In this document: positions 11,412-32,790 of the stretch, piece after piece
How the letters are laid out: each line of letters starts with the position of its first letter
Numbering within the stretch: position 1 is the stretch's first letter
IMG/VR virus record: IMGVR_UViG_3300018424_005577
Span: 37,912 to 101,911 of that record
Strand: one strand, 5' to 3'
Length of the DNA: 64,000 nt
DNA from: a virus
Notes under the pieces: model-generated
The model's database searches: none
What the model saw: only the letters and a program-made list of their open reading frames with translations
Told to the model about the DNA's origin: nothing
Position numbers and translations under genes: made by a program

Positions 11412-14105
11412 TTAGAATCCTATATTAGCACCGTTTTCTCTTGCTTGTAAAATATTATTAATTCTTTGTTCTTCATTTCTTCTTGCAATTATGCGCTGTG
11501 CCGCGGCTTCGTCGCCTGCGCCAGATTCAACATCAGCGCCGCTGTCGTCTGTGTTAGGATTTGCCGAGCCTGAACCGTTAGCATTTGTACCTCCAGTTCC
11601 TCCTTGACTTCCGCTTTCTGCGTCTGCACCGTTAAAGGTGCCTGCTGGGCTTGAAGGTGTTTCTGCTATAGATGCGCCTCCTGCACCTTCTACTACTACT
11701 TCGTTATTTTGACTTGTTGCATCAGCAGTTACGTCATCTTCTTGGTTTCTGCGTCTAATTGTTTTCATCTCTTGAGTAAATTTTCCGCCGTTAAATTTGT
11801 TTAAAACATAAATTACTTGATATAATCCGCTAAATGCTCCAATTGGTTTTGTACCCAATCCCGGGAAGTCCATAAAGCCATCTGCGCCAATATCTAAGGG
11901 AGTTCTAAAATTAATTAATACATCTACTTCACCGGATTGATAATCCATTGTACCATCAGTTGTAAGATTCATTGCTTCTGCAATTTCTCCTGCACTATAA
12001 TTTCCCATTCCGCTATCTGCAATATAATAAGGGTCTCCCCATATTTCTAAATCTGCACTAATCAAATCAACAGGGGAGTTAACTATTGCATCATTGAATG
12101 CTCTAGCAACTGCGGTCTCAGGATGATTTTGTACTGTTCCGCCTAAGCCTGTGTTAGATCTAGTACTTTGTCCTGTTGACGATGTTCCTGAGCTAGATCT
12201 GTTAGCATTATTTCCTACATTTCTACGATGCAATGGATGATCAGGAGCTTGTGTTAGAGAACTCGATCCAGCAGTTTGCTGGTCTTGTCCTAATTGTCCC
12301 ATATCACTTTGTATTGCTGTAAAGAAGGCGCCATCAACTTGTATGTCAAAGTTTATAATATCGTCGTTGTCTCCAGTATAGATATAATCATACTGTTTTA
12401 ATGCTTGACGTTTTAAATTTGATATACCCGGAGTAGGTGCTGTTGGCGAATTAATTCTTGAAGTATTAATTTTATAAGGAACTACTCTATACACATAAAC
12501 TTTTGGTGTCTTGCCTGTCTGATCAACATTTGCACTATCTGTTACATTGTAAACATCAGTTTCAATTCTAAACCAAGTTTTATTTCCGTTTTCATCAGAT
12601 GCTTCTGTAACAAATTGTCTACCATACTCCGAAAGTAAAACTAATTCTTCAATTATATCTTGTATTCTAGTTCCCTTTTTAAAGTTTATTCTACGGCCTT
12701 CGTCACTAATTTGCATAGGTCCTCTTGTAAATATACCTTCGTTATTTTCATCCCTCACAAATGCAGGCCTGCCAAAATACTGTTGTCCGCTATCGAGATA
12801 ACTTTTTACAATAGAAGAAGTTCCTATAGCATTCATGTTTGACCCTTCTTCTGCAAAATCACGAATACTTTCACCTATAGCACTACGTCTTACCGTAAGT
12901 CCAAGAATACTACTTAATTCTGCATCAAAATCATCAGGTATTTCTCCGCCTTGTATTCCAGATATTGTTTCGAAAATTTCTTGTCTTCTAGCATCGGTAA
13001 ATTGTCTAAATTCAGTTGCAGTAGTTGCACCGCTGTCCTCTACAATTTGTCCTAGTAATCCTTCAGTTTCAGAACTTCTTTGTGTAGGGAAAAGAATAAC
13101 AAACTGGTCAGCAGTAGAAACGCTTCCGGATTCTTCTTGTTCTACTTGTCTACTGTTTAACATTGTTGCTAAACTTTCTGCACCTGTTTGTAAAAACTGA
13201 CCTATTGTTTCACCTTTTATGTCTATATCTTCTTTAATAGTTTGAACAGAATCAGATAGAGCTTGTTCATGCCAGGGTATACCGTCAACTTGATATATAC
13301 TTCCTCCGGCACTTGTATTAAATGTTGCAAGAGCTAATTTCATTGGAAACATTCTTTTTGTTTGCGGAATAGAAATAGGATTGCCATTGTCGTCCCAACC
13401 TACAAATTCAACAGTAAGTAGATAAGGTGCTTCTAAATAATTTTTATGACCAGCTTGTAATGCGCTTATTTGTAATGTTTGTAAAAACATCCCCATCGAA
13501 TAAGGTTCCATTACTTCAAAAGATAAACTAGTTGCATTGGTTTGTTTAGTTTGCGGGGTAGGAGCAATTATTGTGTCAATTTGTACATTGTCAATAAAAT
13601 ATTCTGTAGTAATATTTCTTTCTTTTTCAAAAAGAGTTTTTACTTGATTGTTGCCTGTTCCGCCGCTTTTTAAAATAACAATACTAGGTCCGTTTTTTCT
13701 ATAAGTTGCATCAGGATAATTAATTTCAAAATTAGTTAATGGACCAAATGTGAAAATATAGTTATAACTTGCAAATTGTGCTAATTTGTTTTTTAAAGGT
13801 CCGCCTGTATATCCTATACCTTTAGCACCAGGTTGAACTCCATTGATGCCGCCGCTTCCAACTCTATTTCCGCCTGCACTAGTACTGCCCCTTCCGAAGT
13901 TAAGTAAACCTCCAAACGCATCTGAGATAGCACCTTTGAGCTGATTGGCAGCGCCTTCTACTGCACTGTTTATACCGTCAACAAAAATATTAGGAGAATT
14001 CCTAATACCATTTATATCTGTCTCAATTTGTCTTCCAAAATCTTCTACAGACTGACCTAGCTGTCTAGCTCTTGCTTCTAAGTTTTGGATTCTAAAATCT
14101 GCCAT
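11412..14105 (-). CDS. Baseplate hub protein (gp27/Mu gp44-like)
   Basis: LEIWGDP and FSGLYQV..V...F.GGKFTQ.M...R C-terminal motifs; lies between spike and LysM-like gene. Confidence 0.6.
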   Translation of the reverse strand: MADFRIQNLEARARQLGQSVEDFGRQIETDINGIRNSPNIFVDGINSAVEGAANQLKGAISDAFGGLLNFGRGSTSAGGNRVGSGGINGVQPGAKGIGYTGGPLKNKLAQFASYNYIFTFGPLTNFEINYPDATYRKNGPSIVILKSGGTGNNQVKTLFEKERNITTEYFIDNVQIDTIIAPTPQTKQTNATSLSFEVMEPYSMGMFLQTLQISALQAGHKNYLEAPYLLTVEFVGWDDNGNPISIPQTKRMFPMKLALATFNTSAGGSIYQVDGIPWHEQALSDSVQTIKEDIDIKGETIGQFLQTGAESLATMLNSRQVEQEESGSVSTADQFVILFPTQRSSETEGLLGQIVEDSGATTATEFRQFTDARRQEIFETISGIQGGEIPDDFDAELSSILGLTVRRSAIGESIRDFAEEGSNMNAIGTSSIVKSYLDSGQQYFGRPAFVRDENNEGIFTRGPMQISDEGRRINFKKGTRIQDIIEELVLLSEYGRQFVTEASDENGNKTWFRIETDVYNVTDSANVDQTGKTPKVYVYRVVPYKINTSRINSPTAPTPGISNLKRQALKQYDYIYTGDNDDIINFDIQVDGAFFTAIQSDMGQLGQDQQTAGSSSLTQAPDHPLHRRNVGNNANRSSSGTSSTGQSTRSNTGLGGTVQNHPETAVARAFNDAIVNSPVDLISADLEIWGDPYYIADSGMGNYSAGEIAEAMNLTTDGTMDYQSGEVDVLINFRTPLDIGADGFMDFPGLGTKPIGAFSGLYQVIYVLNKFNGGKFTQEMKTIRRRNQEDDVTADATSQNNEVVVEGAGGASIAETPSSPAGTFNGADAESGSQGGTGGTNANGSGSANPNTDDSGADVESGAGDEAAAQRIIARRNEEQRINNILQARENGANIGF

Positions 14106-15298: not shown

Positions 15299-16132
15299 AT
15301 GAGAAAAGTTAATTATTTAAACAACAAGGACATTTTAGCGGAGATACACAAATCCAAAAGCTCTTTTTGCAGTTTTGTTGACCCTGAATACCATCAATTT
15401 GACATAATTTTACCAAGTATAGACAAAATCAATATTAGAACCATTGCAGAAGCAAAACGTAACAAAGCAAAAAGGCTTACTGTTGCAGAATTTGATAGAA
15501 GAAAACAAGCAGGAGAAAAAGTCAAGCAATCAGAATGCGAACACGACTATAAAAAAATTACAAAAGAAGAACTAATTTTTCGTATTATGAGTTTTGACCA
15601 TATTCCAGACGAACCTGGTCGCAAGAAAAATCCTAAAACAGTAGCAGACACAAAAGTAAAACTAAACTTTCCTCCATTTCAGCACTACAAATTTAATGAT
15701 GAAGGAGAACTAGTATGTGTTGGTAAAAGTCATTGGGTAGGAGGAATGGAAAATGGAAATTTTGATCTTAGATCAGGAAAAGCAACAGAAAAATTAGCAA
15801 GAATGTGGATGAAGTTGTGTGATAGATATGCGACTAGAGGTAATGTTCGCGGATATACCTACAATGACGAAATGCGAGGACAAGCGATACTACAACTTGC
15901 ACAAATTGGACTACAGTTTGACGAGTCAAAGTCCAACAACCCGTTTGCTTACTACACTGCGGCGGTCACAAACTCATTTGTACGTGTTATCAACATTGAA
16001 AAACGCAATCAAAACATTAGAGACGACATCCTCGAAATGAATGACCTAAATCCTAGTTATACTAGACAACACGCCGGAGAATGGGAAGCCGCAGTTGCAA
16101 GAGAAAAGGCAAAAAGTACTAATAACGGTTGA
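15299..16132 (+). CDS. Late-transcription sigma factor, T4 gp55-like
   Basis: NYLNNKD N-terminus and RGYTYNDEM...FDESKSNNPFAYYT...SF.R.I..EK motif; immediately upstream of gp47/gp46 as in T4-like phages. Confidence 0.85.
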   Translation: MRKVNYLNNKDILAEIHKSKSSFCSFVDPEYHQFDIILPSIDKINIRTIAEAKRNKAKRLTVAEFDRRKQAGEKVKQSECEHDYKKITKEELIFRIMSFDHIPDEPGRKKNPKTVADTKVKLNFPPFQHYKFNDEGELVCVGKSHWVGGMENGNFDLRSGKATEKLARMWMKLCDRYATRGNVRGYTYNDEMRGQAILQLAQIGLQFDESKSNNPFAYYTAAVTNSFVRVINIEKRNQNIRDDILEMNDLNPSYTRQHAGEWEAAVAREKAKSTNNG

Positions 16133-16157
16133 CATTGCTTTAAAAATAGCGTATTAT
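16129..16157 (+). promoter_or_regulatory. sigma70 promoter for gp47-gp46
   Basis: TTGACA (16129-16134, includes the gp55 TGA stop), 17 bp, TATTAT (16152-16157). Confidence 0.7.
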
Positions 16158-16186: not shown

Positions 16187-17197
16187 TTGTTTAAAAAAGC
16201 GGCTGTGTTTACCGATATTCACTTCGGTTTAAAAGGAAATAGCAGAGTACACAACGATGATTGTGAAGAATTTGTAGATTGGTTTATAGAACAGGCAAAA
16301 GCTAACGGTTGTGAAACTGCAATCTTCTGTGGAGATTGGCATCATAACAGAAATAGTCTAAATCTAACTACAATGGATGCAACTATTCGAAGTTTAGAAA
16401 AAATAGGTAAATCTTTTGAGAAGTTTTACATGTTTGTAGGCAATCATGACTTGTATTACAAAGACAAGCGTGATGTAAGTTCAACTATATTCGGAAAACA
16501 TATTGATGGTGTTACATTTGTAGATGAAATCTATGAACAAGACGATGTAGCACTTGTTCCGTGGCTTGTCGGCGACGAATGGAAGAAGATTGAAAAAATT
16601 AAAGCCAAATATATGTTTGGACATTTTGAACTGCCGAGTTTCTATATGAATGCTATGGTGCAAATGCCTGATCATGGTGATCTACGTGCTGAGCATTTTA
16701 AAAATCAAGACTATGTTTTTAGCGGGCACTTTCATAAACGTCAAGTACAAGGCAAAATACATTACATTGGTAATGCGTTTCCTCACAACTATGCAGATGC
16801 ATGGGATGACGAACGCGGTATGATGATACTTGATAAAGAAAATGGTAAAGAACCTGAGTACATTAACTGGTGGAACTGTCCTAAGTATCGTACAACTACA
16901 CTAAGCAAACTGTTGGATCCAAATGCAGACATTATAAAACCTAAAATGTATTTGCGTGTTACTATTGATGTTCCTATTAGTTACGAAGAAGCACAGTTTA
17001 TCAAAGAAACATATATTTCTCAATATAATTGTAGAGAAATAACACTAATACCGCAAAAACAAATTGAAGAAATTACAACTGACTTAGATATCTCAGCATT
17101 TGAAAGTGTTGACGAAATTGTATCTAAAGAAATAACTGCAATTGATTCAGAAAACTTTAACAAAAAAATGTTACTAGACATTTACAATGAGTTATAA
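16187..17197 (+). CDS. Recombination endonuclease subunit gp47 (Mre11/SbcD-like metallophosphoesterase)
   Basis: DIH, GD, GNHD, GH and GHFH motifs; TTG start with GGAG RBS. Confidence 0.92.
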   Translation: MFKKAAVFTDIHFGLKGNSRVHNDDCEEFVDWFIEQAKANGCETAIFCGDWHHNRNSLNLTTMDATIRSLEKIGKSFEKFYMFVGNHDLYYKDKRDVSSTIFGKHIDGVTFVDEIYEQDDVALVPWLVGDEWKKIEKIKAKYMFGHFELPSFYMNAMVQMPDHGDLRAEHFKNQDYVFSGHFHKRQVQGKIHYIGNAFPHNYADAWDDERGMMILDKENGKEPEYINWWNCPKYRTTTLSKLLDPNADIIKPKMYLRVTIDVPISYEEAQFIKETYISQYNCREITLIPQKQIEEITTDLDISAFESVDEIVSKEITAIDSENFNKKMLLDIYNEL

Positions 17198-18970
17198 ATG
17201 ATAAAAGTAAAAGATCTTACAGTAAAAAACTTTATGAGTGTGGGTAATCAAACTCAGGCTGTTGATTTCAACAGAGAAAAGTTAACGTTGGTGCTAGGTG
17301 AAAACTTAGATCAGGGAGGTGACGATTCTGGCTCACGAAACGGTACAGGTAAAACTACGATAATCAATGCATTATCCTACGCCTTGTACGGCCAAGCACT
17401 AACAAACATCAAGCGAAACAACCTTATCAATAAAACTAACAGTAAAGGTATGGTTGTTTCGCTTGACTTTGAAAAGGATGGACAAACATATAGAATCGAA
17501 AGAGGCCGTTCACCTACATTCTTAAAGTTTTATGTAAACGATCAAGAGCAAGAAGCTGAAGACGAATCGCAAGGCGACAGTCGTAAAACGCAAGAGTACA
17601 TTAATGACTTGTTAGGTATGAGTCATGACATGTTCAAGCATATTGTTGCACTGAATACATATTCAGAACCATTCCTTGCAATGCGTCAAAATGATCAACG
17701 TGCTATAATTGAACAACTTCTCGGTATTACTATATTATCAGAAAAAGCAGATGCTCTCAAAGAACAAATACGTGTTACTAAAGAAAGTATTACTCAGGAA
17801 ACACTTAAGATAGATGCTATCAATAGTGCAAACGCACACATTGAAGATACTATTAAAAGTCTTAAAACTAAACAAAGTGCATGGAACTCTAAAAAACAAC
17901 AAGATCTTGGAAGATTACAACAAGGATTAGATGAATTAGAGCATCTAGACATTGATGCAGAACTAGATGCACACGAAAAACTGTCTAGTTGGACAGAAAT
18001 GAACAATGCTATTTTGGCTCTTAATAAAGAAAAAAGCACACTAGATGGTGCGTTACTACAAGCTGATAAACGTGTTAAAAAGATTGAAAAAGATGTCTTA
18101 GATCTTGAAGATGCAGTATGTTATACATGCGGACAATCACTTCATGAAGATAAAAAACAAGAAGTCTTATCACAAAAAGCAACCGAATTAGAAGAAGCAA
18201 TAGCTTATCAGACTGATGTTACTAATAAACTAAACGGAGTATTAAAGAATCTCGACGACATTGGTGATATTAACGGTAAACCATCAACGTTTTACGAAAC
18301 TGCTAAAGAAGCATACGATCATCGAAACAATGTGGATAATCTAAAACAAGCAGTTCGGACAAAAGAAGATGAAACAGATCCTTATGACAGTCAAATAAAA
18401 GAATTAACACAAGAAGCAATACAAGAAGTTGACTGGACACCTGTAAATGACCTTACAAATCTTAAAGATCATCAAGAATTCTTATTAAAATTACTTACAA
18501 ACAAAGATAGTTTCATTCGTAAAAAGATTATTGAGCAAAATCTAGCATATCTAAACAACCGACTAACATATTATCTTGATAAACTAGGGTTGCCTCATCA
18601 AGTTCTTTTCCAAAACGATCTAAATGTTGAGATTACCCAACTAGGACAGGACTTAGACTTTGATAATTTGTCAAGAGGTGAGCGTAACAGACTTATTTTA
18701 GGTTTAAGTTTTGCATTCCGTGATGTTTGGGAAAGTTTATATCAAAATATTAATTTGTTATTCATTGACGAGTTGATTGATAGCGGTATGGACACAGCAG
18801 GTGTTGAAGGATCTCTTGCTGTTCTCAAAAAAATTGCACGTGAACGTGATAAAAATATTTTCTTAATCAGTCACAAAGATGAACTAGTCGGTCGTGTAAA
18901 CACGATATTAAAAGTTGTAAAAGAAAATGGATTTACAAGTTATGAAAACGATTTGGACGTAGTAGAATGA
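17198..18970 (+). CDS. Recombination ATPase subunit gp46 (Rad50/SbcC-like)
   Basis: KNFMSVGN, Walker A NGTGKTT, zinc hook CYTC, signature LSRGE, Walker B LLFIDE, ISH. Confidence 0.95.
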   Translation: MIKVKDLTVKNFMSVGNQTQAVDFNREKLTLVLGENLDQGGDDSGSRNGTGKTTIINALSYALYGQALTNIKRNNLINKTNSKGMVVSLDFEKDGQTYRIERGRSPTFLKFYVNDQEQEAEDESQGDSRKTQEYINDLLGMSHDMFKHIVALNTYSEPFLAMRQNDQRAIIEQLLGITILSEKADALKEQIRVTKESITQETLKIDAINSANAHIEDTIKSLKTKQSAWNSKKQQDLGRLQQGLDELEHLDIDAELDAHEKLSSWTEMNNAILALNKEKSTLDGALLQADKRVKKIEKDVLDLEDAVCYTCGQSLHEDKKQEVLSQKATELEEAIAYQTDVTNKLNGVLKNLDDIGDINGKPSTFYETAKEAYDHRNNVDNLKQAVRTKEDETDPYDSQIKELTQEAIQEVDWTPVNDLTNLKDHQEFLLKLLTNKDSFIRKKIIEQNLAYLNNRLTYYLDKLGLPHQVLFQNDLNVEITQLGQDLDFDNLSRGERNRLILGLSFAFRDVWESLYQNINLLFIDELIDSGMDTAGVEGSLAVLKKIARERDKNIFLISHKDELVGRVNTILKVVKENGFTSYENDLDVVE

Positions 18971-18994: not shown

Positions 18995-19204
18995 ATGAGT
19001 GAAATAAAAGACGATATACATGACCAACTAACAAAGGCATACATGGAATATTTTAAGGCAAACGAAAAGTTTGAGTCTAGAAATTCTGTGAGAACACATC
19101 GTGAAGCACGGAAATGGTTGCGAATTATTAGAAGTTTAGCAAAACAACGCATGGAAGAAATACATTCAAAACACACAACCAAAAAAGAAGGCAACAAAGA
19201 ATAG
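18995..19204 (+). CDS. Small helical hypothetical protein (69 aa)
   Basis: Fills the gap between gp46 and the GIY-YIG gene; preceded by extended -10 TGtTATATT at 18978-18986. Confidence 0.7.
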   Translation: MSEIKDDIHDQLTKAYMEYFKANEKFESRNSVRTHREARKWLRIIRSLAKQRMEEIHSKHTTKKEGNKE

Positions 19205-19222
19205 GCACAGGTAAGTAAGTTC

Positions 19223-19672
19223 ATGCAGTGGACTTACAAAGGCAAAGTAATAGACAAAATACCAGACGAGTATGAAGGCTTTGTATATCTCATAACCAAT
19301 CTTAAAACTGGGCAAAAGTACGTAGGCAAGAAACTAGCAAAGTTCAAAACAACAAAACCTCCGCTAAAAGGCAAAAAGAACAAACGCAGAGGCTACAAAG
19401 AATCAGACTGGCGTGACTATTGGGGAAGTTCTGATAGATTAAACGCAGATGTAGCAAAGCTAGGCGAAAAAAACTTCACTAGAGAAATACTATACCTATG
19501 TAAAGGCAGGGGCGAAATGTCCTATATTGAGGCAAGAGAGCAATTTGACCGCCGTGTATTAGAGACGGATGAGTATTATAATGGAATTATTAATGTTAGA
19601 GTTGGCGGTTCCGATAAATTGCGCAAGGCTTTGCTAGAACACACCATCAAGGCAAAACAATCCAACACATAA
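19223..19672 (+). CDS. Stand-alone GIY-YIG family nuclease-like protein (149 aa)
   Basis: GFVY..TN...G.KYVGKK, YWGSS, NFTREIL, candidate catalytic E (YIEARE) and YYN; no C-terminal DNA-binding module. Confidence 0.8.
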   Translation: MQWTYKGKVIDKIPDEYEGFVYLITNLKTGQKYVGKKLAKFKTTKPPLKGKKNKRRGYKESDWRDYWGSSDRLNADVAKLGEKNFTREILYLCKGRGEMSYIEAREQFDRRVLETDEYYNGIINVRVGGSDKLRKALLEHTIKAKQSNT

Positions 19673-20010
19673 GGTTAGCGGGCCAGTTTAGAAATACCGC
19701 TGTGGAAAAAGCACTCGTATAGAGGCACACGTAACACGTTGAGCGGCGTTCGGTAGTAGAGCGTTTGATTGACGTAGATGGAATGTTGGCTGTCGAAAAA
19801 CTGCAAAGTACATAAAAACCGTATGCACAGGAACGAAGCAACGGGTAGCGCAAGCGATGTCGACGTAGGTTGGGAAAGGTCAGAGCCCATTGTACAGCAG
19901 AAAATACCTACTTCCAAGTCTCGGCTGTGACGAACTCACATGAAGCGAATTTTGAGACAGGCTGGAACCGTAACAGGTTCCGTCTGACTGAAACAATCTA
20001 CATGAAACTT
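19673..20010 (+). ncRNA. Putative large structured ncRNA (~340 nt), family not recognised
   Basis: GC-enriched gap without a credible ORF; hand-found stems with G.U pairs (19736-19775; 19784-90/19859-65; 19865-70/19906-11; 19918-24/19952-58; 19964-81), long-range 19774-79/19996-20001, possible pseudoknot 19879-84/19983-88. Confidence 0.65.
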
Positions 20011-20012
20011 AG

Positions 20013-20038
20013 ACGCTTTACTTCGTAAAGCGTTTTTT
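20013..20038 (+). terminator. Intrinsic terminator-like hairpin ending the GIY-YIG/ncRNA transcript
   Basis: ACGCTTTAC-TTC-GTAAAGCGT followed by a T run. Confidence 0.7.
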
Positions 20039-20098
20039 CATATATAATCACTTCTATCATACAAAACGAAGTGTATAGTTTGAGCGATAGCGAAAACA

Positions 20099-20119
20099 AA
20101 TATCTACGAAGTAGATATT
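20099..20119. repeat. Perfect inverted repeat with GAA triloop
   Basis: AATATCTAC-GAA-GTAGATATT. Confidence 0.8.
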
Positions 20120-20165
20120 CAAAAAGATAACTAAATACATTATAAGTTAGGAAAAGATTAAGCCG

Positions 20166-21308
20166 ATGAAAGTTTACGATATTGTTTCTCTTAGAGAAGA
20201 TGAATTGCCAAACGCTAGTATGAGCGATTTGCGTTCTATGCAGTTTGTTGCTGACAAGCAAATATTACCTGATGGAAAAGTAAGAGTTTTATTACCAGAT
20301 GGTCAAATCTTAGATTTTGCCGACGAGGCTGAACTAGAAAGAGAAACACGAAAAGCTAAATCTAGACTAGCAACAAAAATAAGAGGGATACCTAGTTTAA
20401 CTAAACTTGCATCAAGTGCCGCAAGAGTAAACTGGTGGATACAAATTTCGGAAGCAATATATTCAGCTTACACAGAATTTAGCACAAATGGAATTAACGG
20501 TAATTACGAAGCAGTAAAAATGGAACTGCTTGAAGTAGGTGTTGCCGCTGGTTTAAGAGTAGTAATAGGAACTGTAAGAACACTGGCTAAAGGAGCAGGA
20601 GCTCTTAAATGGATCAAACGTTTAACTACTGCTAAACGTTCAGCACAAATGGCAACAGCGGCGTTAGGCGCGGCAGGTTTTGCAACAGGAGGTATAACCT
20701 GGGTAGGTGCATTGATTACAGGTGCCGGTTGGATTGCTACGGAAGTTGCGCTATACCTAGCTACAGATTATATAGCCGATATGATCATGGATGAGTTTTT
20801 CAATCCTGAAGAAGTTGAAAAAGAATTAGCAGAACAACTGCAAGATGAATTAAGTTTAATTTTAGGTTTGACTAGAAGTGCTAGACACGTAGACGCTGAC
20901 GGTGATGGCGAGCCAGACAATATCAATCCAGAAACTGGCAATGTAGTAGATCCAGAAACTGGTCAGGATTACAAATATGATTTAGGTGATTTAACTCCTG
21001 ATGATATAGAAAGATTACGCAATGCTACTCCAGGTCAAATTAATCAACTAGCCGATGATCCAAGATTTTCTGATGTATTGTCAGACTATAGAAATAGGAT
21101 GGACAGCATAGGCGGTCCTAATTCACGTCGTAGAAGTATAACTGATTTCGAAAGAGAATCAGTGCGTGAAGAATCTGACGAAGGAAAAGTAGCAGGTACT
21201 GAAGAACTACAAGGATTTGTAAACTTCTTAAAAGACAAAGGCTACGACAGAGATTTACGCACTAAAGTTGTAAAAGTTGCACAGCATACTATGCGTCAAT
21301 CAGATTAA
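20166..21308 (+). CDS. Hypothetical late protein with Ala/Gly-rich hydrophobic helices; candidate internal head/ejection protein
   Basis: 380-aa ORF; CTAAATA at 20131-20137; N-terminal MKVYDIVSLRE; hydrophobic segment ALGAAGFATGGITWVGALITGAGWIA. Confidence 0.7.
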   Translation: MKVYDIVSLREDELPNASMSDLRSMQFVADKQILPDGKVRVLLPDGQILDFADEAELERETRKAKSRLATKIRGIPSLTKLASSAARVNWWIQISEAIYSAYTEFSTNGINGNYEAVKMELLEVGVAAGLRVVIGTVRTLAKGAGALKWIKRLTTAKRSAQMATAALGAAGFATGGITWVGALITGAGWIATEVALYLATDYIADMIMDEFFNPEEVEKELAEQLQDELSLILGLTRSARHVDADGDGEPDNINPETGNVVDPETGQDYKYDLGDLTPDDIERLRNATPGQINQLADDPRFSDVLSDYRNRMDSIGGPNSRRRSITDFERESVREESDEGKVAGTEELQGFVNFLKDKGYDRDLRTKVVKVAQHTMRQSD

Positions 21309-31777: not shown

Positions 31778-31795
31778 CAATGATAAATAGTTTTA

Positions 31796-31838
31796 CGTTC
31801 ATCCTACGGGACGGAAGTAGCATATTGCGAAGGAACGC
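31796..31838 (+). ncRNA. Glutamine riboswitch (glnA RNA motif, class I)
   Basis: P1 CGUUC/GAACG, P2 UCC-UACG-GGA, E-loop GGAAGUA...GAAG, P3 GCA-UAU-UGC: the three-way-junction consensus of the glnA motif; ATAAATA at 31783-31789 just upstream. Confidence 0.8.
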
Positions 31839-31867
31839 ACTTTAACCCTTTAACTAGGAGAAGTGTT

Positions 31868-32270: not shown

Positions 32271-32373
32271 ATTTGATAAATACATTTGTCAAGAAGTAGA
32301 GCCTCTTGATGAGGACTTATGCGGTACCCGCCGCGTAGACCTAGAACGTCAAATATTTTATAAGGAGAAAAAA

Positions 32374-32790
32374 ATGGGACGTCCAGTTAATAAAGACAAA
32401 ATCGGATACGGCGCTGGTCGTATCGCAGTAACAAGACACTTTTTTACAGGTGCTTCAGAAGCAACAACAGCCGCACATATTATTAGACAGGTTAGTGATA
32501 ATCGTTTTGTAGTGCGTTTAGACTCTAATGCAGGCGACGATTCTGCAGATGAAATTCTACAATTAACCAATCTTGGTTCTGGAAATTTAACAGAAGGTAC
32601 TTTTGAAATTGATGCATACGGAACTGACTCAACTACATACCAAGTAACAAAGATTCGCAACAGAACTGTTCAACTAGAAGCAGGCGGAACAGAATTTAAT
32701 GCAGTTTATGGCATTGGTAACATTCCAGAAGTATTAGAAACAGGTACAAATCCTGCAAATACTCTAGCAGTAGCGTTACCGGCACAATAA
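32374..32790 (+). CDS. Virion structural protein (138 aa), start corrected to MGRPVNKDK
   Basis: AAGGAG RBS at 32362-32367 and ATAAATA at 32276-32282; the longer ORF-track start runs through the ncRNA. Confidence 0.75.
   Translation: MGRPVNKDKIGYGAGRIAVTRHFFTGASEATTAAHIIRQVSDNRFVVRLDSNAGDDSADEILQLTNLGSGNLTEGTFEIDAYGTDSTTYQVTKIRNRTVQLEAGGTEFNAVYGIGNIPEVLETGTNPANTLAVALPAQ

What the first reader, a model, noticed from the sequence alone, without database searches (positions are those of the whole stretch)
19212..20038. Minimal GIY-YIG protein co-transcribed with a ~340-nt intricately folded RNA: candidate nuclease-RNA system
Seen: right after the GIY-YIG stop, a GC-enriched non-coding tract runs to a terminator. 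It has about ten stems (TAGCGG/CCGCTG; ACGTTGA..GGCGTTC/GAGCGTT..TTGACGT; TGTTGGC/GTCGACG; GTAGGT/ACCTAC; TGGG/CCCA; GTCTCGG/TTGAGAC; TGTGA/TCACA; GGAACC/GGTTCC), a long-range GTAGAT/ATCTAC closure, and a loop GTCAGA complementary to TCTGAC 100 nt away. That last pairing competes with a CAGGC/GTCTG stem, so it could switch. Frequent G.U pairs point to function as RNA. The protein has only the catalytic fold, with a very basic insert (KTTKPPLKGKKNKRRGYK) and no NUMOD/HTH specificity domain. Known: homing GIY-YIG enzymes use a separate DNA-binding domain; HEARO/OMEGA systems pair a nuclease with a structured RNA; ColE1 and T4 origins use RNA primers/R-loops. Inference: an RNP in which the RNA provides scaffold or specificity, or a replication-primer RNA processed by the nuclease, located next to gp46/47. 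I do not recognise it as tmRNA, RNase P or a group I/II intron.
Basis: partly seen in the sequence, partly recalled or inferred. Interest (0 to 1): 0.85.

Follow-up and report, generated by a model that had tools for sequence, protein, structure and literature searches.

The report
Twin-box structured RNA behind phage nuclease
The gene-free stretch behind a small DNA-cutting enzyme gene of this uncultured marine T4-like phage is a real gene for a large, knotted RNA from an uncatalogued family; it is not the enzyme's guide, it keeps one 7-letter word identical at two places, and its job is unknown (my best guess is that it starts DNA copying).

Summary
Window 19650-20041 (+) encodes a conserved RNA of about 390 nt. 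Alignments of 42 to 104 relatives from uncultured viral contigs show compensatory changes in at least 8 helices, including a long-range pairing and a pseudoknot. Variable hairpins are capped by GNRA loops, and several joiners are invariant. Rfam 15 and ARAGORN find nothing.

The element starts 23 nt inside the GIY-YIG reading frame, not after its stop codon. The order gp47-gp46-orf69-GIY-YIG-RNA is kept in 88 of 91 loci. The nuclease-RNA system reading is not supported:
- The RNA has no variable guide segment.
- It occurs without the nuclease in two small siphophage-like lineages.
- 847 deposited phages have the nuclease family and none has the RNA core.

The 7-mer ACATGAA occurs twice, at 19938-44 in a loop and at 20000-06 just before the 3' hairpin. 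The two copies stay identical through seven sequence states in 104 RNAs. No complementary partner exists in cis.

My best mechanistic guess, at about 0.3, follows ColE1 RNA II: the upstream copy pairs with the template DNA at the downstream copy and fixes an R-loop that primes replication. A trans-acting RNA is almost as likely. Earlier agents of this scan found the same family on other genomes.

The parts
16129..16157 (+). sigma-70-like promoter (TTGACA-17-TATTAT, 11 of 12) ahead of gp47; likely start of the operon that ends with the RNA
   Evidence: This is a consensus match only.
16187..18970 (+). gp47-like (Mre11/SbcD phosphoesterase) and gp46-like (Rad50/SbcC ATPase) genes
   Evidence: Pfam Metallophos; AAA_23, SMC_N and Rad50 zinc hook. 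tblastn hits to recombination endonuclease subunits.
18995..19204 (+). orf69, a small basic protein of no known family, conserved between gp46 and the nuclease
   Evidence: Found by tblastn in most related loci.
19223..19672 (+). stand-alone GIY-YIG nuclease, 149 aa, catalytic domain only
   Evidence: PF19835 E 1e-34, residues 3-123. phrog_447 E 3e-38. 595 viral contigs encode a relative (tblastn E<=1e-3); the best 80 are 87-95% identical.
19650..19676 (+). conserved A/C-rich 5' leader of the RNA (AGGCAAAACAATCCAACACATAA|GG); overlaps the last 7 codons and the stop of the nuclease gene
   Evidence: The leader is kept where the ORF ends elsewhere (L071, L091, L095, L098, L138, L148) and where the stop is replaced by AAA or CAA.
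19677..19701 (+). P1 hairpin (AGCGG/CCGCT)
   Evidence: 99.5% paired, nearly invariant (helix 1).
19702..19730 (+). P2 (GTG/CAC) enclosing the P3 hairpin
   Evidence: P2: UA:32 and AU:10. P3: 5 pairs with changes on both sides (helices 2 and 3).
19736..19775 (+). P4 (ACGTTGA/TTGACGT) with the variable extension P4a; many IMG/VR contigs break here
   Evidence: 3 covarying pairs, 99% paired (helix 4). Three length forms. Contig ends.
19777..19794 (+). P5 hairpin (GATGG/CTGTC) with conserved loop ..TGTTGG
   Evidence: 3 covarying pairs, 98.6% paired (helix 6).
19801..19812 (+). 5' strand of the long-range helix P6 (CTGC..GTACA), followed by the invariant joiner CATAAAAAC
   Evidence: Pairs with 19891-19900. 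3 covarying pairs, 100% paired (helix 8).
19819..19844 (+). P7 (CCGT/ACGG) with invariant loop ..AGGAACGAAGC
   Evidence: 3 covarying pairs, 100% paired (helices 9 and 10).
19848..19855 (+). P8, a GNRA-capped (GCAA) hairpin that is expanded by up to about 130 nt in relatives
   Evidence: helix 11: 2 covarying pairs at its base.
19856..19870 (+). invariant joiner GATGTCGACG and 5' strand of P9 (TAGGT)
   Evidence: Pairs with 19906-19910. UA:41 and GC:1 in A1, UA:87 and GC:7 in 94 RNAs. CG in L114. It crosses P6, so it is a pseudoknot.
19872..19888 (+). P10 hairpin GGG/CCC with the invariant loop AAAGGTCAGAG, the most conserved word of the family
   Evidence: Invariant in 42 of 42 (helix 13). 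Used as the search word.
19878..19884 (+). loop strand GGTCAGA of a possible second pseudoknot with TCTGACT at 19983-19989
   Evidence: 99.7% paired, invariant apart from G-U/G-C at one pair (helix 14). Kept in L106 and L114. Not provable by covariation.
19891..19910 (+). 3' strands of P6 (TGTAC.AGCAG) and P9 (ACCTA)
   Evidence: helices 7, 8 and 12.
19918..19958 (+). P11 (GTCTC/GAGAC) and the variable stem P12, which carry box 2
   Evidence: helices 15 and 16. Single-sequence folds.
19938..19944 (+). twin box, copy 1 (ACATGAA), mostly unpaired in the P12 loop
19964..19989 (+). P13 hairpin (GGAACC/GGTTCC) followed by TCTGACT
   Evidence: helix 17.
20000..20006 (+). twin box, copy 2 (ACATGAA), in the invariant 3' tail ..CAATCTACATGAA; 51-67 nt after copy 1
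20011..20041 (+). 3' hairpin with UUCG loop and, in this window, a U-tract (intrinsic terminator-like)
   Evidence: The stem covaries between loci. Only 34 of 83 distinct hairpins have a U-rich tail.
20042..20165 (+). AT-rich spacer holding the conserved word GTTTGAGCG.TAGCGAAAAC, a second covarying hairpin (20099-20119) and a TAAATA late-promoter-like box before the next gene
   Evidence: Whether it belongs to the RNA's function is an inference.

Best explanation
Window 19650-20041 is an autonomous gene for a structured RNA of about 390 nt with one or two pseudoknots. It belongs to an uncatalogued family that I call the twin-box RNA. It sits at the 3' end of the early operon gp47-gp46-orf69-GIY-YIG of an uncultured marine T4-like myophage.

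Shown: the fold is under selection as RNA on the + strand. It does not depend on the nuclease.

Inferred mechanism: the RNA carries the same 7-mer twice, once displayed in a loop (19938-44) and once 5 nt before the 3' hairpin (20000-06). The two copies co-vary as identical words and no complementary partner exists in cis. The most economical reading is therefore that the loop copy pairs with the template DNA strand at the downstream copy, which is complementary to both by construction. This would anchor the nascent transcript as a persistent RNA-DNA hybrid next to the AT-rich hairpin region. It is the logic of the rG/dC contact of ColE1 RNA II and of the T4 oriF/oriG R-loops. The hybrid would prime or open DNA replication.

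My odds:
- Real RNA gene: 0.95.
- Independent of the nuclease: 0.8.
- R-loop/origin function: about 0.3. The confidence figure given for this explanation is for the whole statement, mechanism included.
For: Structure:
- 86.4% of cells are paired against 34-38% in slid controls. 241 cells change on both sides against 87+-8 in shuffles.
- G-U pairs that would be C-A on the other strand fix the strand.
- Insertions are hairpins capped by GNRA loops.

Family and independence:
- 88 of 91 loci keep the synteny.
- The RNA stands alone in L106 and in L114/L201-203.
- G001 is 25.6 kb and 85% complete. It shows terminase, portal, head and tape-measure genes but no recognisable replication gene.

Twin box:
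- In 104 distinct RNAs the two copies agree at every variable position: 100 A/A and 4 G/G; 90 G/G and 13 A/A; 87 A/A, 13 T/T and 1 G/G with 2 mixed.
- The states are ACATGAA, ACATAAT, ACATGAT, ACGTGAA, ACATAAA, ACATGAG and ACAGAAA.
- No complementary word is kept inside the RNA, within +-1.5 kb, or in the 300 nt downstream.

Setting:
- An early sigma-70-like promoter.
- One copy in the 102-kb record.
- An AT-rich spacer (GC 0.295) with conserved hairpins just downstream.
- ColE1 needs an rG stretch of the RNA to pair with a dC stretch of the template, and T4 oriF/oriG prime from R-loops at a DNA unwinding element (PMC4412123).
Against: - No experiment and no replication mapping exists.
- The fold is far more ornate and more conserved than any known primer RNA, which suggests a protein or ligand partner, or catalysis.
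- In this window a good intrinsic terminator follows box 2's twin, which should release the transcript. Only 34 of 83 relatives have the U-tract.
- The promoter is 3.5 kb upstream, unlike T4 origins, where promoter and unwinding element adjoin.
- A 319-nt metatranscriptome contig that spans almost exactly the RNA hints at a free, stable RNA species.
- A trans partner that co-varies with the boxes would explain the twin-box identity equally well and cannot be excluded.
- The small-phage record is 85% complete, so missing replication genes are not proven absent.
Confidence: 0.32

Rival explanations
1. A trans-acting RNA. The knotted scaffold displays two identical single-stranded 7-mers that capture two copies of a complementary word (NNNAUGU-like) on another nucleic acid, such as a phage or host mRNA start region or a small RNA. 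Alternatively they bind a dimeric RNA-binding protein. The RNA would then act as a regulator, decoy or sponge.
For: - Ornate, invariant loops and pseudoknots are typical of RNAs with molecular partners.
- The twin-box identity needs a common partner.
- The complement of every myophage state keeps AUG.
- A discrete 319-nt RNA contig was seen in a metatranscriptome.
- The RNA ends in a hairpin, as free small RNAs do.
Against: - No partner was found. The complementary word is not enriched in the 102-kb record (4+7 hits against about 11 expected per strand).
- The nuclease start codon region matches in only about 40% of loci and does not follow the box state.
- No gene start in the flanks follows the state.
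- The L114 state ACAGAAA has no AUG complement.
- A host partner cannot be searched because the host is unknown.
Confidence: 0.28
2. One reading: the RNA is a scaffold or specificity subunit of the GIY-YIG nuclease (an OMEGA/HEARO-like RNP), or it is processed by that nuclease.
For: - Adjacency and probable co-transcription in 88 of 91 loci.
- The protein lacks a DNA-binding domain.
- The RNA leader overlaps the end of the ORF.
- The nuclease start region GUUCAUG can pair with the box in about 40% of loci.
Against: - The RNA occurs without the nuclease in two small-phage lineages.
- The nuclease occurs without the RNA in Melnitz and in 847 deposited phage records.
- There is no hypervariable single-stranded guide; the boxes have only about 7 states.
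- Insertions of about 230 nt can separate gene and RNA.
- The synteny includes gp46 and orf69 as well, so it looks like plain vertical inheritance.
Confidence: 0.07
3. A ribozyme or a remnant of a self-splicing or mobile ribozyme (group I-like), with the GIY-YIG gene as its former homing endonuclease.
For: - There is a pseudoknotted core. An A-rich joiner (TAAAAA) follows the long-range helix, and the peripheral hairpins are GNRA-capped and variable in length.
- The word GGTCAGAGCCCA resembles the group I R element. This resemblance is recalled from memory, not tested.
- Phage group I introns often carry GIY-YIG genes. This is also from memory.
Against: - No group I, group II, RNase P or small-ribozyme model matches, even at E 10 on 1.1 kb, nor at E 1 on four other loci.
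- There are no flanking exons. The element ends in a hairpin before a promoter.
- No P8-like hairpin lies between the P3'-like and P7'-like strands.
Confidence: 0.08
4. A cis-acting 3' UTR element that protects the operon mRNA from 3' exonucleases or tunes read-through of the terminator into the downstream late gene.
For: It lies at the operon's 3' end and stops at a hairpin. Copy 2 of the box lies 5 nt before that hairpin.
Against: - About 390 nt with at least 13 helices is far beyond what stabilisers or attenuators need.
- The downstream gene has its own late-promoter-like box.
- The same RNA works in a different gene context in small phages.
- No alternative pairing that involves the hairpin is conserved.
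Confidence: 0.06

Closest known systems
ColE1 RNA II and the T4 oriF/oriG origin transcripts (R-loop primers)
   Same: Each is a structured transcript made from an upstream promoter. It must stay hybridised to its template near an easily melted region. In ColE1 an upstream RNA stretch has to pair with the template strand at a downstream place, which implies two like words in the RNA (PMC4412123). T4-type phages use R-loops at origins.
   Different: There is no sequence or Rfam relation. The words here are heteropolymeric 7-mers 51-67 nt apart, not G runs 245 nt apart (those figures are from memory). The fold is pseudoknotted and much more conserved. A hairpin, often with a U-tract, follows. 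The promoter is 3.5 kb away. Nothing about replication was tested.
GOLLD (RF01998), ROOL (RF03087) and similar large ornate RNAs of phages and prophages
   Same: These are large, intricately folded RNAs borne by phages. They have variable peripheral hairpins, strongly conserved loops and no known function.
   Different: No model match. This RNA is smaller (about 330-520 nt), shows twin-box identity covariation, and has a fixed place behind gp46 and the GIY-YIG gene.
OMEGA/HEARO RNAs of IscB and TnpB
   Same: A structured RNA encoded next to a small nuclease gene.
   Different: The nuclease is GIY-YIG, not RuvC/HNH. There is no guide segment. RNA and nuclease occur apart. There is no transposon end and no Rfam match.
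T4 Seg-type free-standing GIY-YIG homing endonucleases (for example SegB in the tRNA cluster)
   Same: The protein matches the SegE GIY-YIG domain. Such a nuclease gene can sit next to a stable-RNA gene without working with it. The SegB example is from memory.
   Different: The protein is 149 aa with no C-terminal DNA-binding domain. It is as conserved as gp46 across the clade (62-92% against 52-88%), which suits a resident gene better than a selfish one.
Polynucleobacter-1 RNA motif (RF01718), named as closest by earlier agents of this scan
   Same: An uncharacterised motif from aquatic metagenomes (PMC2864571).
   Different: No match in this window at E 10 or in four related loci at E 1.

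Membership tests
GIY-YIG nucleases, SegE-type domain (PF19835) | Profile match over the whole catalytic domain | tested here: met
   E 1.1e-34, 119.7 bits against a cut-off of 25; residues 3-123 on profile positions 1-123. phrog_447 E 2.8e-38.
Seg-type homing endonucleases | A C-terminal DNA-binding domain behind the catalytic domain | tested here: not met
   Only 26 residues follow the domain, and there is no second Pfam hit at E 0.1.
T4 endonuclease II (DenA) | Sequence relation to the solved EndoII structure | tested here: not met
   phmmer against PDB chains finds no GIY-YIG chain at E 1. A fold comparison was not run.
RNA-guided nuclease systems (OMEGA/HEARO type) | RNA and nuclease always encoded together | tested here: not met
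   RNA alone in L106 and L114/L201-203. Nuclease alone in Melnitz and in deposited phages.
RNA-guided nuclease systems (OMEGA/HEARO type) | A variable, single-stranded guide segment at one end of a constant scaffold | tested here: not met
   Both ends are conserved. The variable parts are paired hairpin extensions.
Any Rfam 15 family (including group I/II introns, RNase P, tmRNA, HEARO, GOLLD, ROOL, Polynucleobacter-1) | Covariance-model match | tested here: not met
   Nothing at gathering score in the region. At E 10 on 19100-20200 the only hit is a chance one outside the RNA. Nothing at E 1 on L106, L114, L008 or L058. ARAGORN finds no tRNA or tmRNA.
Group I intron | Flanking exons that join into a gene | tested here: not met
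   The element runs from the end of one ORF to a hairpin and a promoter-like box. No ORF continues.
R-loop priming transcripts (ColE1 RNA II / T4 ori type) | An upstream RNA segment able to pair with the template strand at a downstream site | tested here: met
   Two identical 7-mers 51-67 nt apart are kept identical through 7 states. That they pair with DNA is an inference.
R-loop priming transcripts (ColE1 RNA II / T4 ori type) | An easily melted (AT-rich) region at the hybrid site | tested here: inconclusive
   GC is 0.295 at 20000-20199 against 0.48 in the RNA. However, the whole genome is AT-rich (about 0.33).
R-loop priming transcripts (ColE1 RNA II / T4 ori type) | A persistent RNA-DNA hybrid and a replication start at the site | not testable with these tools
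   This needs R-loop mapping and mapping of replication starts.

The most novel reading that the evidence does not exclude
The twin-box RNA is a portable, self-anchoring replication starter. A folded transcript uses a loop copy of a 7-mer to seize its own template at the second copy and so sets up an R-loop origin. The cassette has moved between T4-like myophages and small siphophage-like phages that seem to lack replication genes. This would be the first ornate, pseudoknotted origin RNA, and the first case in which identity covariation (not complementarity) between two RNA sites reveals an RNA-DNA contact.
Probability: 0.28. Interest if true: 0.88.

Novelty: new member of a known kind. Interest (0 to 1): 0.7.

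Why it matters
This is a large structured RNA family that no catalogue holds. It is present in at least about a hundred, probably hundreds, of uncultured marine myophage contigs and in unrelated small phages. Its structure is strongly supported by covariation, and it has an unusual signature: two sites that must stay identical rather than complementary. That signature gives a sharp hypothesis that can be tested by mutation at either copy. If the R-loop reading holds, it would identify replication origins in an abundant group of ocean phages for which none is known, and it would add a new way in which RNA structure programs DNA replication. If it fails, the RNA is still a good target for structural and biochemical work of the kind done on GOLLD, ROOL and OLE. 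The result also removes a tempting but unsupported claim of a GIY-YIG RNA-guided nuclease.

Tried and rejected
- Single-sequence folding: no better than shuffles on either strand.
- Rfam at gathering score and at permissive E-values, on the window and on four loci: nothing.
- ARAGORN: nothing.
- blastn of the locus and of the 70-nt core against 50,697 deposited phage records: no true match.
- Exact 19-mer scan of 185,579 species genomes: five hits, all chance matches inside unrelated coding sequence.
- PDB sequence search with the nuclease: no GIY-YIG chain.
- A cis partner for the twin box: none inside the RNA (6 of 7 pairs required, G-U allowed), none within +-1.5 kb, none in the 300 nt downstream (11 of 98 against 5 of 98 in the control).
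- The nuclease start codon region as partner: it matches in about 40% of main-state loci but does not follow the box state.
- Other gene starts in the flanks: none is consistent.
- A 121-aa ORF at 12835 with a perfect complement: it looks like a spurious frame and is not conserved.
- Enrichment of the word in the 102-kb record: none.
- Pairing of box 1 with box 2 through the CATG palindrome: it fails in the ACATAAT state (reasoned).
- Similarity between the small-phage ORF upstream of the RNA and the nuclease: BLASTP E 0.41.
- Pfam on ten small-phage ORFs near the RNA: only a weak His-Me finger hit.
- RNA-library contigs: they cover the gene and the RNA, but the depth figures cannot rank genes and the runs were chosen by this stretch.
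- A full-length covariance model was not built, because the tool's size and time limits (400 columns; 4-8 minutes already at 190 positions) rule out about 340 positions.
Full report
What is there. The window is part of an IMG/VR virus record of 101,911 bases. Around the finding all genes lie on the + strand:
- a gp47-like phosphoesterase (16187-17197);
- a gp46-like Rad50/SbcC ATPase (17198-18970);
- a 69-aa basic ORF (18995-19204);
- a 149-aa GIY-YIG protein (19223-19672).

After these comes about 490 nt without a credible ORF, up to the next gene at 20166. The GIY-YIG protein matches Pfam PF19835 (SegE GIY-YIG domain) over residues 3-123 at E 1e-34 and nothing else. It falls in phrog_447, a family of stand-alone proteins of about 148 aa that is mislabelled 'NAD synthetase'. 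GC rises to 47-49% in 19600-19999 against about 30-39% on both sides. A near-consensus sigma-70 promoter lies at 16129-16157, and a hairpin with a U-tract at 20011-20035. The closest deposited phage by protein is the Methylophilales myophage Melnitz (Kyanoviridae), which is 66% identical in the nuclease.

Is the RNA real? On its own the sequence folds no better than its shuffles (z -0.78). The evidence comes from relatives.

A scan of viral contigs with the nuclease gave 595 confirmed loci, of which the best 80 are 87-95% identical in protein. The stretch behind the gene is conserved in them at 70-87% nucleotide identity. In an alignment of 42 distinct copies (A1) long stretches are invariant:
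- CATAAAAAC
- AGGAACGAAGC
- GATGTCGACG
- GGGAAAGGTCAGAGCCCATTG
- ACTCACATGAAG
- GGTTCCGTCTGAC
- ATCTACAT

Between these, helices change by compensatory substitutions, and whole hairpins are inserted or removed.

Counting my model on A1 gave these figures:
- 86.4% of cells pair, against 34-38% when partners are slid by 1-3 columns.
- 32 pairs change on both sides, against 25+-2 in shuffles and 10-15 when slid.
- 241 cells change on both sides, against 87+-8 in shuffles.

The best helices are P2, P3, P4, P5, the long-range P6 (19808-12 with 19891-95; GC/AU, UA/CG and AU/UA; 100% paired), P7, and the base of the expandable P8. P9 (19866-70 with 19906-10) crosses P6 and so makes a pseudoknot. It has one covarying pair in the myophages (UA/GC) and a third state, CG, in L114. 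A second possible pseudoknot pairs the loop GGTCAGA with TCTGACT about 100 nt away. It is 99.7% pairable but invariant, so covariation cannot test it. Many G-U pairs that would be C-A on the other strand fix the + strand as the RNA strand.

These are the GTAGAT/ATCTAC closure, TGTGA/TCACA, TGTTGGC/GTCGACG and CAGGC/GTCTG. The last occurs in only about 4 of 42 sequences, so the proposed switch is a peculiarity of this copy.

Boundaries. The 23 nt before my first start point (AGGCAAAACAATCCAACACATAA) are conserved even in loci where the nuclease ORF ends elsewhere, or where about 230 nt are inserted between gene and RNA. They are also conserved where the stop codon is replaced by AAA or CAA. The element therefore starts at about 19650 and overlaps the last seven codons of the nuclease gene. 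At the 3' end the invariant tail is followed by a hairpin whose stem differs between loci but always pairs. Only 34 of 83 distinct hairpins have a U-rich tail.

Is it known? Rfam 15 gives no match in the region, either at gathering scores or at E 10. It gives none at E 1 in four related loci, two of them from the divergent small-phage form. ARAGORN finds no tRNA or tmRNA. No deposited phage record holds the locus or its 70-nt core. The five exact 19-mer hits in 185,579 species genomes are chance matches in coding sequence.

Earlier agents of this scan met the same family on other genomes and called it a twin-box knotted RNA. Their suggested nearest relative, Polynucleobacter-1, does not match here.

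Is it the nuclease's RNA? Of the 91 loci with at least 1.1 kb upstream, 88 have the nuclease and 87 have gp46 in the same order. Of the three exceptions, L110 is a chance match. L106 and L114 are true but divergent copies of the RNA in small phages. L201-203 are the same type as L114.

One such record, G001, is 25.6 kb and estimated 85% complete. It encodes terminase, portal, major head protein, a tape-measure-like protein, large tail proteins and small ORFs. The RNA sits just before two small ORFs and the terminase. I recognised no GIY-YIG gene and no replication gene.

Conversely, the Melnitz nuclease lies behind the ribonucleotide reductase genes with only 148 nt after it. The Melnitz genome lacks the core word even with 3 mismatches allowed. 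847 deposited phage records hold the nuclease family and none holds the RNA core.

Within the myophages the nuclease is as conserved as gp46 (62-92% against 52-88%). The adjacency therefore looks like inherited gene order. The RNA has no hypervariable single-stranded segment. I conclude that a guide or specificity role for the nuclease is unlikely, at about 0.07.

The twin box. The 7-mer ACATGAA occurs at 19938-44, mostly unpaired in the loop closed by the variable stem P12. It occurs again at 20000-06 in the 3' tail, 51-67 nt further on. Across 104 distinct RNAs the two copies carry the same letter at every variable position:
- position 3: 100 A/A and 4 G/G;
- position 4: 100 T/T and 3 G/G;
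- position 5: 90 G/G and 13 A/A;
- position 7: 87 A/A, 13 T/T and 1 G/G, with only 2 mixed.

One further row (ACATGAGG against ACAATCTA) is a mis-extraction by the search pattern. It accounts for the single odd cell at positions 4 to 8 of the table.

Together these give the joint states ACATGAA, ACATAAT, ACATGAT, ACGTGAA, ACATAAA, ACATGAG and, in L114, ACAGAAA. L106 has a different repeated word, ATCATCAAGT, at the two places. This is covariation for identity, not for complementarity, so both copies must fit one partner.

I looked for that partner and found none:
- no kept complement inside the RNA;
- none within 1.5 kb;
- none in the 300 nt downstream;
- no enrichment of the word in the 102-kb record;
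- no gene start that follows the state, including that of the nuclease.

How it most likely works. Only one partner needs no third sequence: the template DNA strand under the downstream copy, which is complementary to both copies by construction. In ColE1, formation of the persistent RNA II-DNA hybrid requires an rG stretch of the RNA to pair with a dC stretch of the template strand. In T4, oriF and oriG prime leading-strand synthesis from an R-loop at an unwinding element (review PMC4412123).

By analogy I propose the following. The folded RNA holds its loop copy where it can seize the template at the second copy as the polymerase passes. This fixes an R-loop next to the AT-rich hairpin region (GC 0.295), and the R-loop starts replication. 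Several points fit this:
- the early promoter;
- the single copy per record;
- the conserved hairpins and words just downstream, which the first stage independently flagged as origin-like (note 2);
- the presence of the RNA in small phages without visible replication genes.

Against it stand the ornate, highly conserved fold, the good terminator in this window, the 3.5 kb to the promoter, and a 319-nt RNA-library contig that spans almost exactly the RNA. I put this reading at about 0.3. A trans-acting scaffold RNA with an unknown partner stands at about 0.28. A ribozyme or intron remnant, and a cis 3' UTR role, stand below 0.1 each.

Verdict. Its main interpretation, a nuclease-RNA system, is not supported, and its side idea of a primer RNA survives. 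The family is new to the catalogues but has been met repeatedly in this scan. Its function is open, and the twin box gives a direct experimental handle.

Noticed in passing
window 31794-31841 and 32300-32376 (+): A glutamine riboswitch aptamer (RF01739, 50.4 bits) and a freshwater-2 RNA (RF02980, 54.8 bits) lie about 460 nt apart. Both are above their gathering scores.
   Followed up: no
window 20042-20165: Behind the RNA's 3' hairpin lie a word conserved in nearly all related loci (GTTTGAGCG.TAGCGAAAAC), a second hairpin (20099-20119) whose stem differs between loci but always pairs (often with a C-GAA-G type loop), and a TAAATA late-promoter-like box before the gene at 20166. These could be regulatory or part of an origin.
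   Followed up: partly
L001-L080 (for example L001, L006, L018, L020, L038, L049, L050, L062, L076): Many IMG/VR contigs end 130-146 nt after the nuclease stop, inside the variable P4a hairpin of the RNA. This is probably an assembly break where strains differ between conserved flanks.
   Followed up: partly
L114:1700-1897 (-) against window 19620-19672: The 65-aa ORF that runs into the small-phage copy of the RNA ends with ..WRKELLEL.., and its DNA resembles the ..LRKALLEH.. tail of the GIY-YIG gene. It could be a relic of the nuclease gene carried along with the RNA, or part of the RNA's leader. BLASTP is not significant (E 0.41).
   Followed up: partly
window 19212-19230 and related loci: The nuclease start region reads GUUCAUG, which can pair with the twin box CAUGAA(C). 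This holds in about 40% of main-state loci but does not follow the box state.
   Followed up: yes
L090, L109, L132, L143, L155, L173, L177 and others: In some relatives 0.7-1.5 kb are inserted between gp46 and orf69, or between orf69 and the nuclease. In L071, L091, L095, L098, L138 and L148 about 230-300 nt are inserted between the nuclease and the RNA. The content of these insertions was not examined.
   Followed up: no
L106:5089-5424 (+): A 111-aa ORF 1.4 kb upstream of the small-phage RNA copy has a weak His-Me finger homing-endonuclease match (PF05551, E 7e-4, below the cut-off).
   Followed up: no
window 19650-19672 against 19990-20009: The RNA's 5' leader (AAACAATCCAACACATAA) and its 3' tail (AAACAATCTACATGAA) are imperfect direct repeats. 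They do not co-vary as the twin box does. ACAT(A/G)AA occurs four times in the element.
   Followed up: partly
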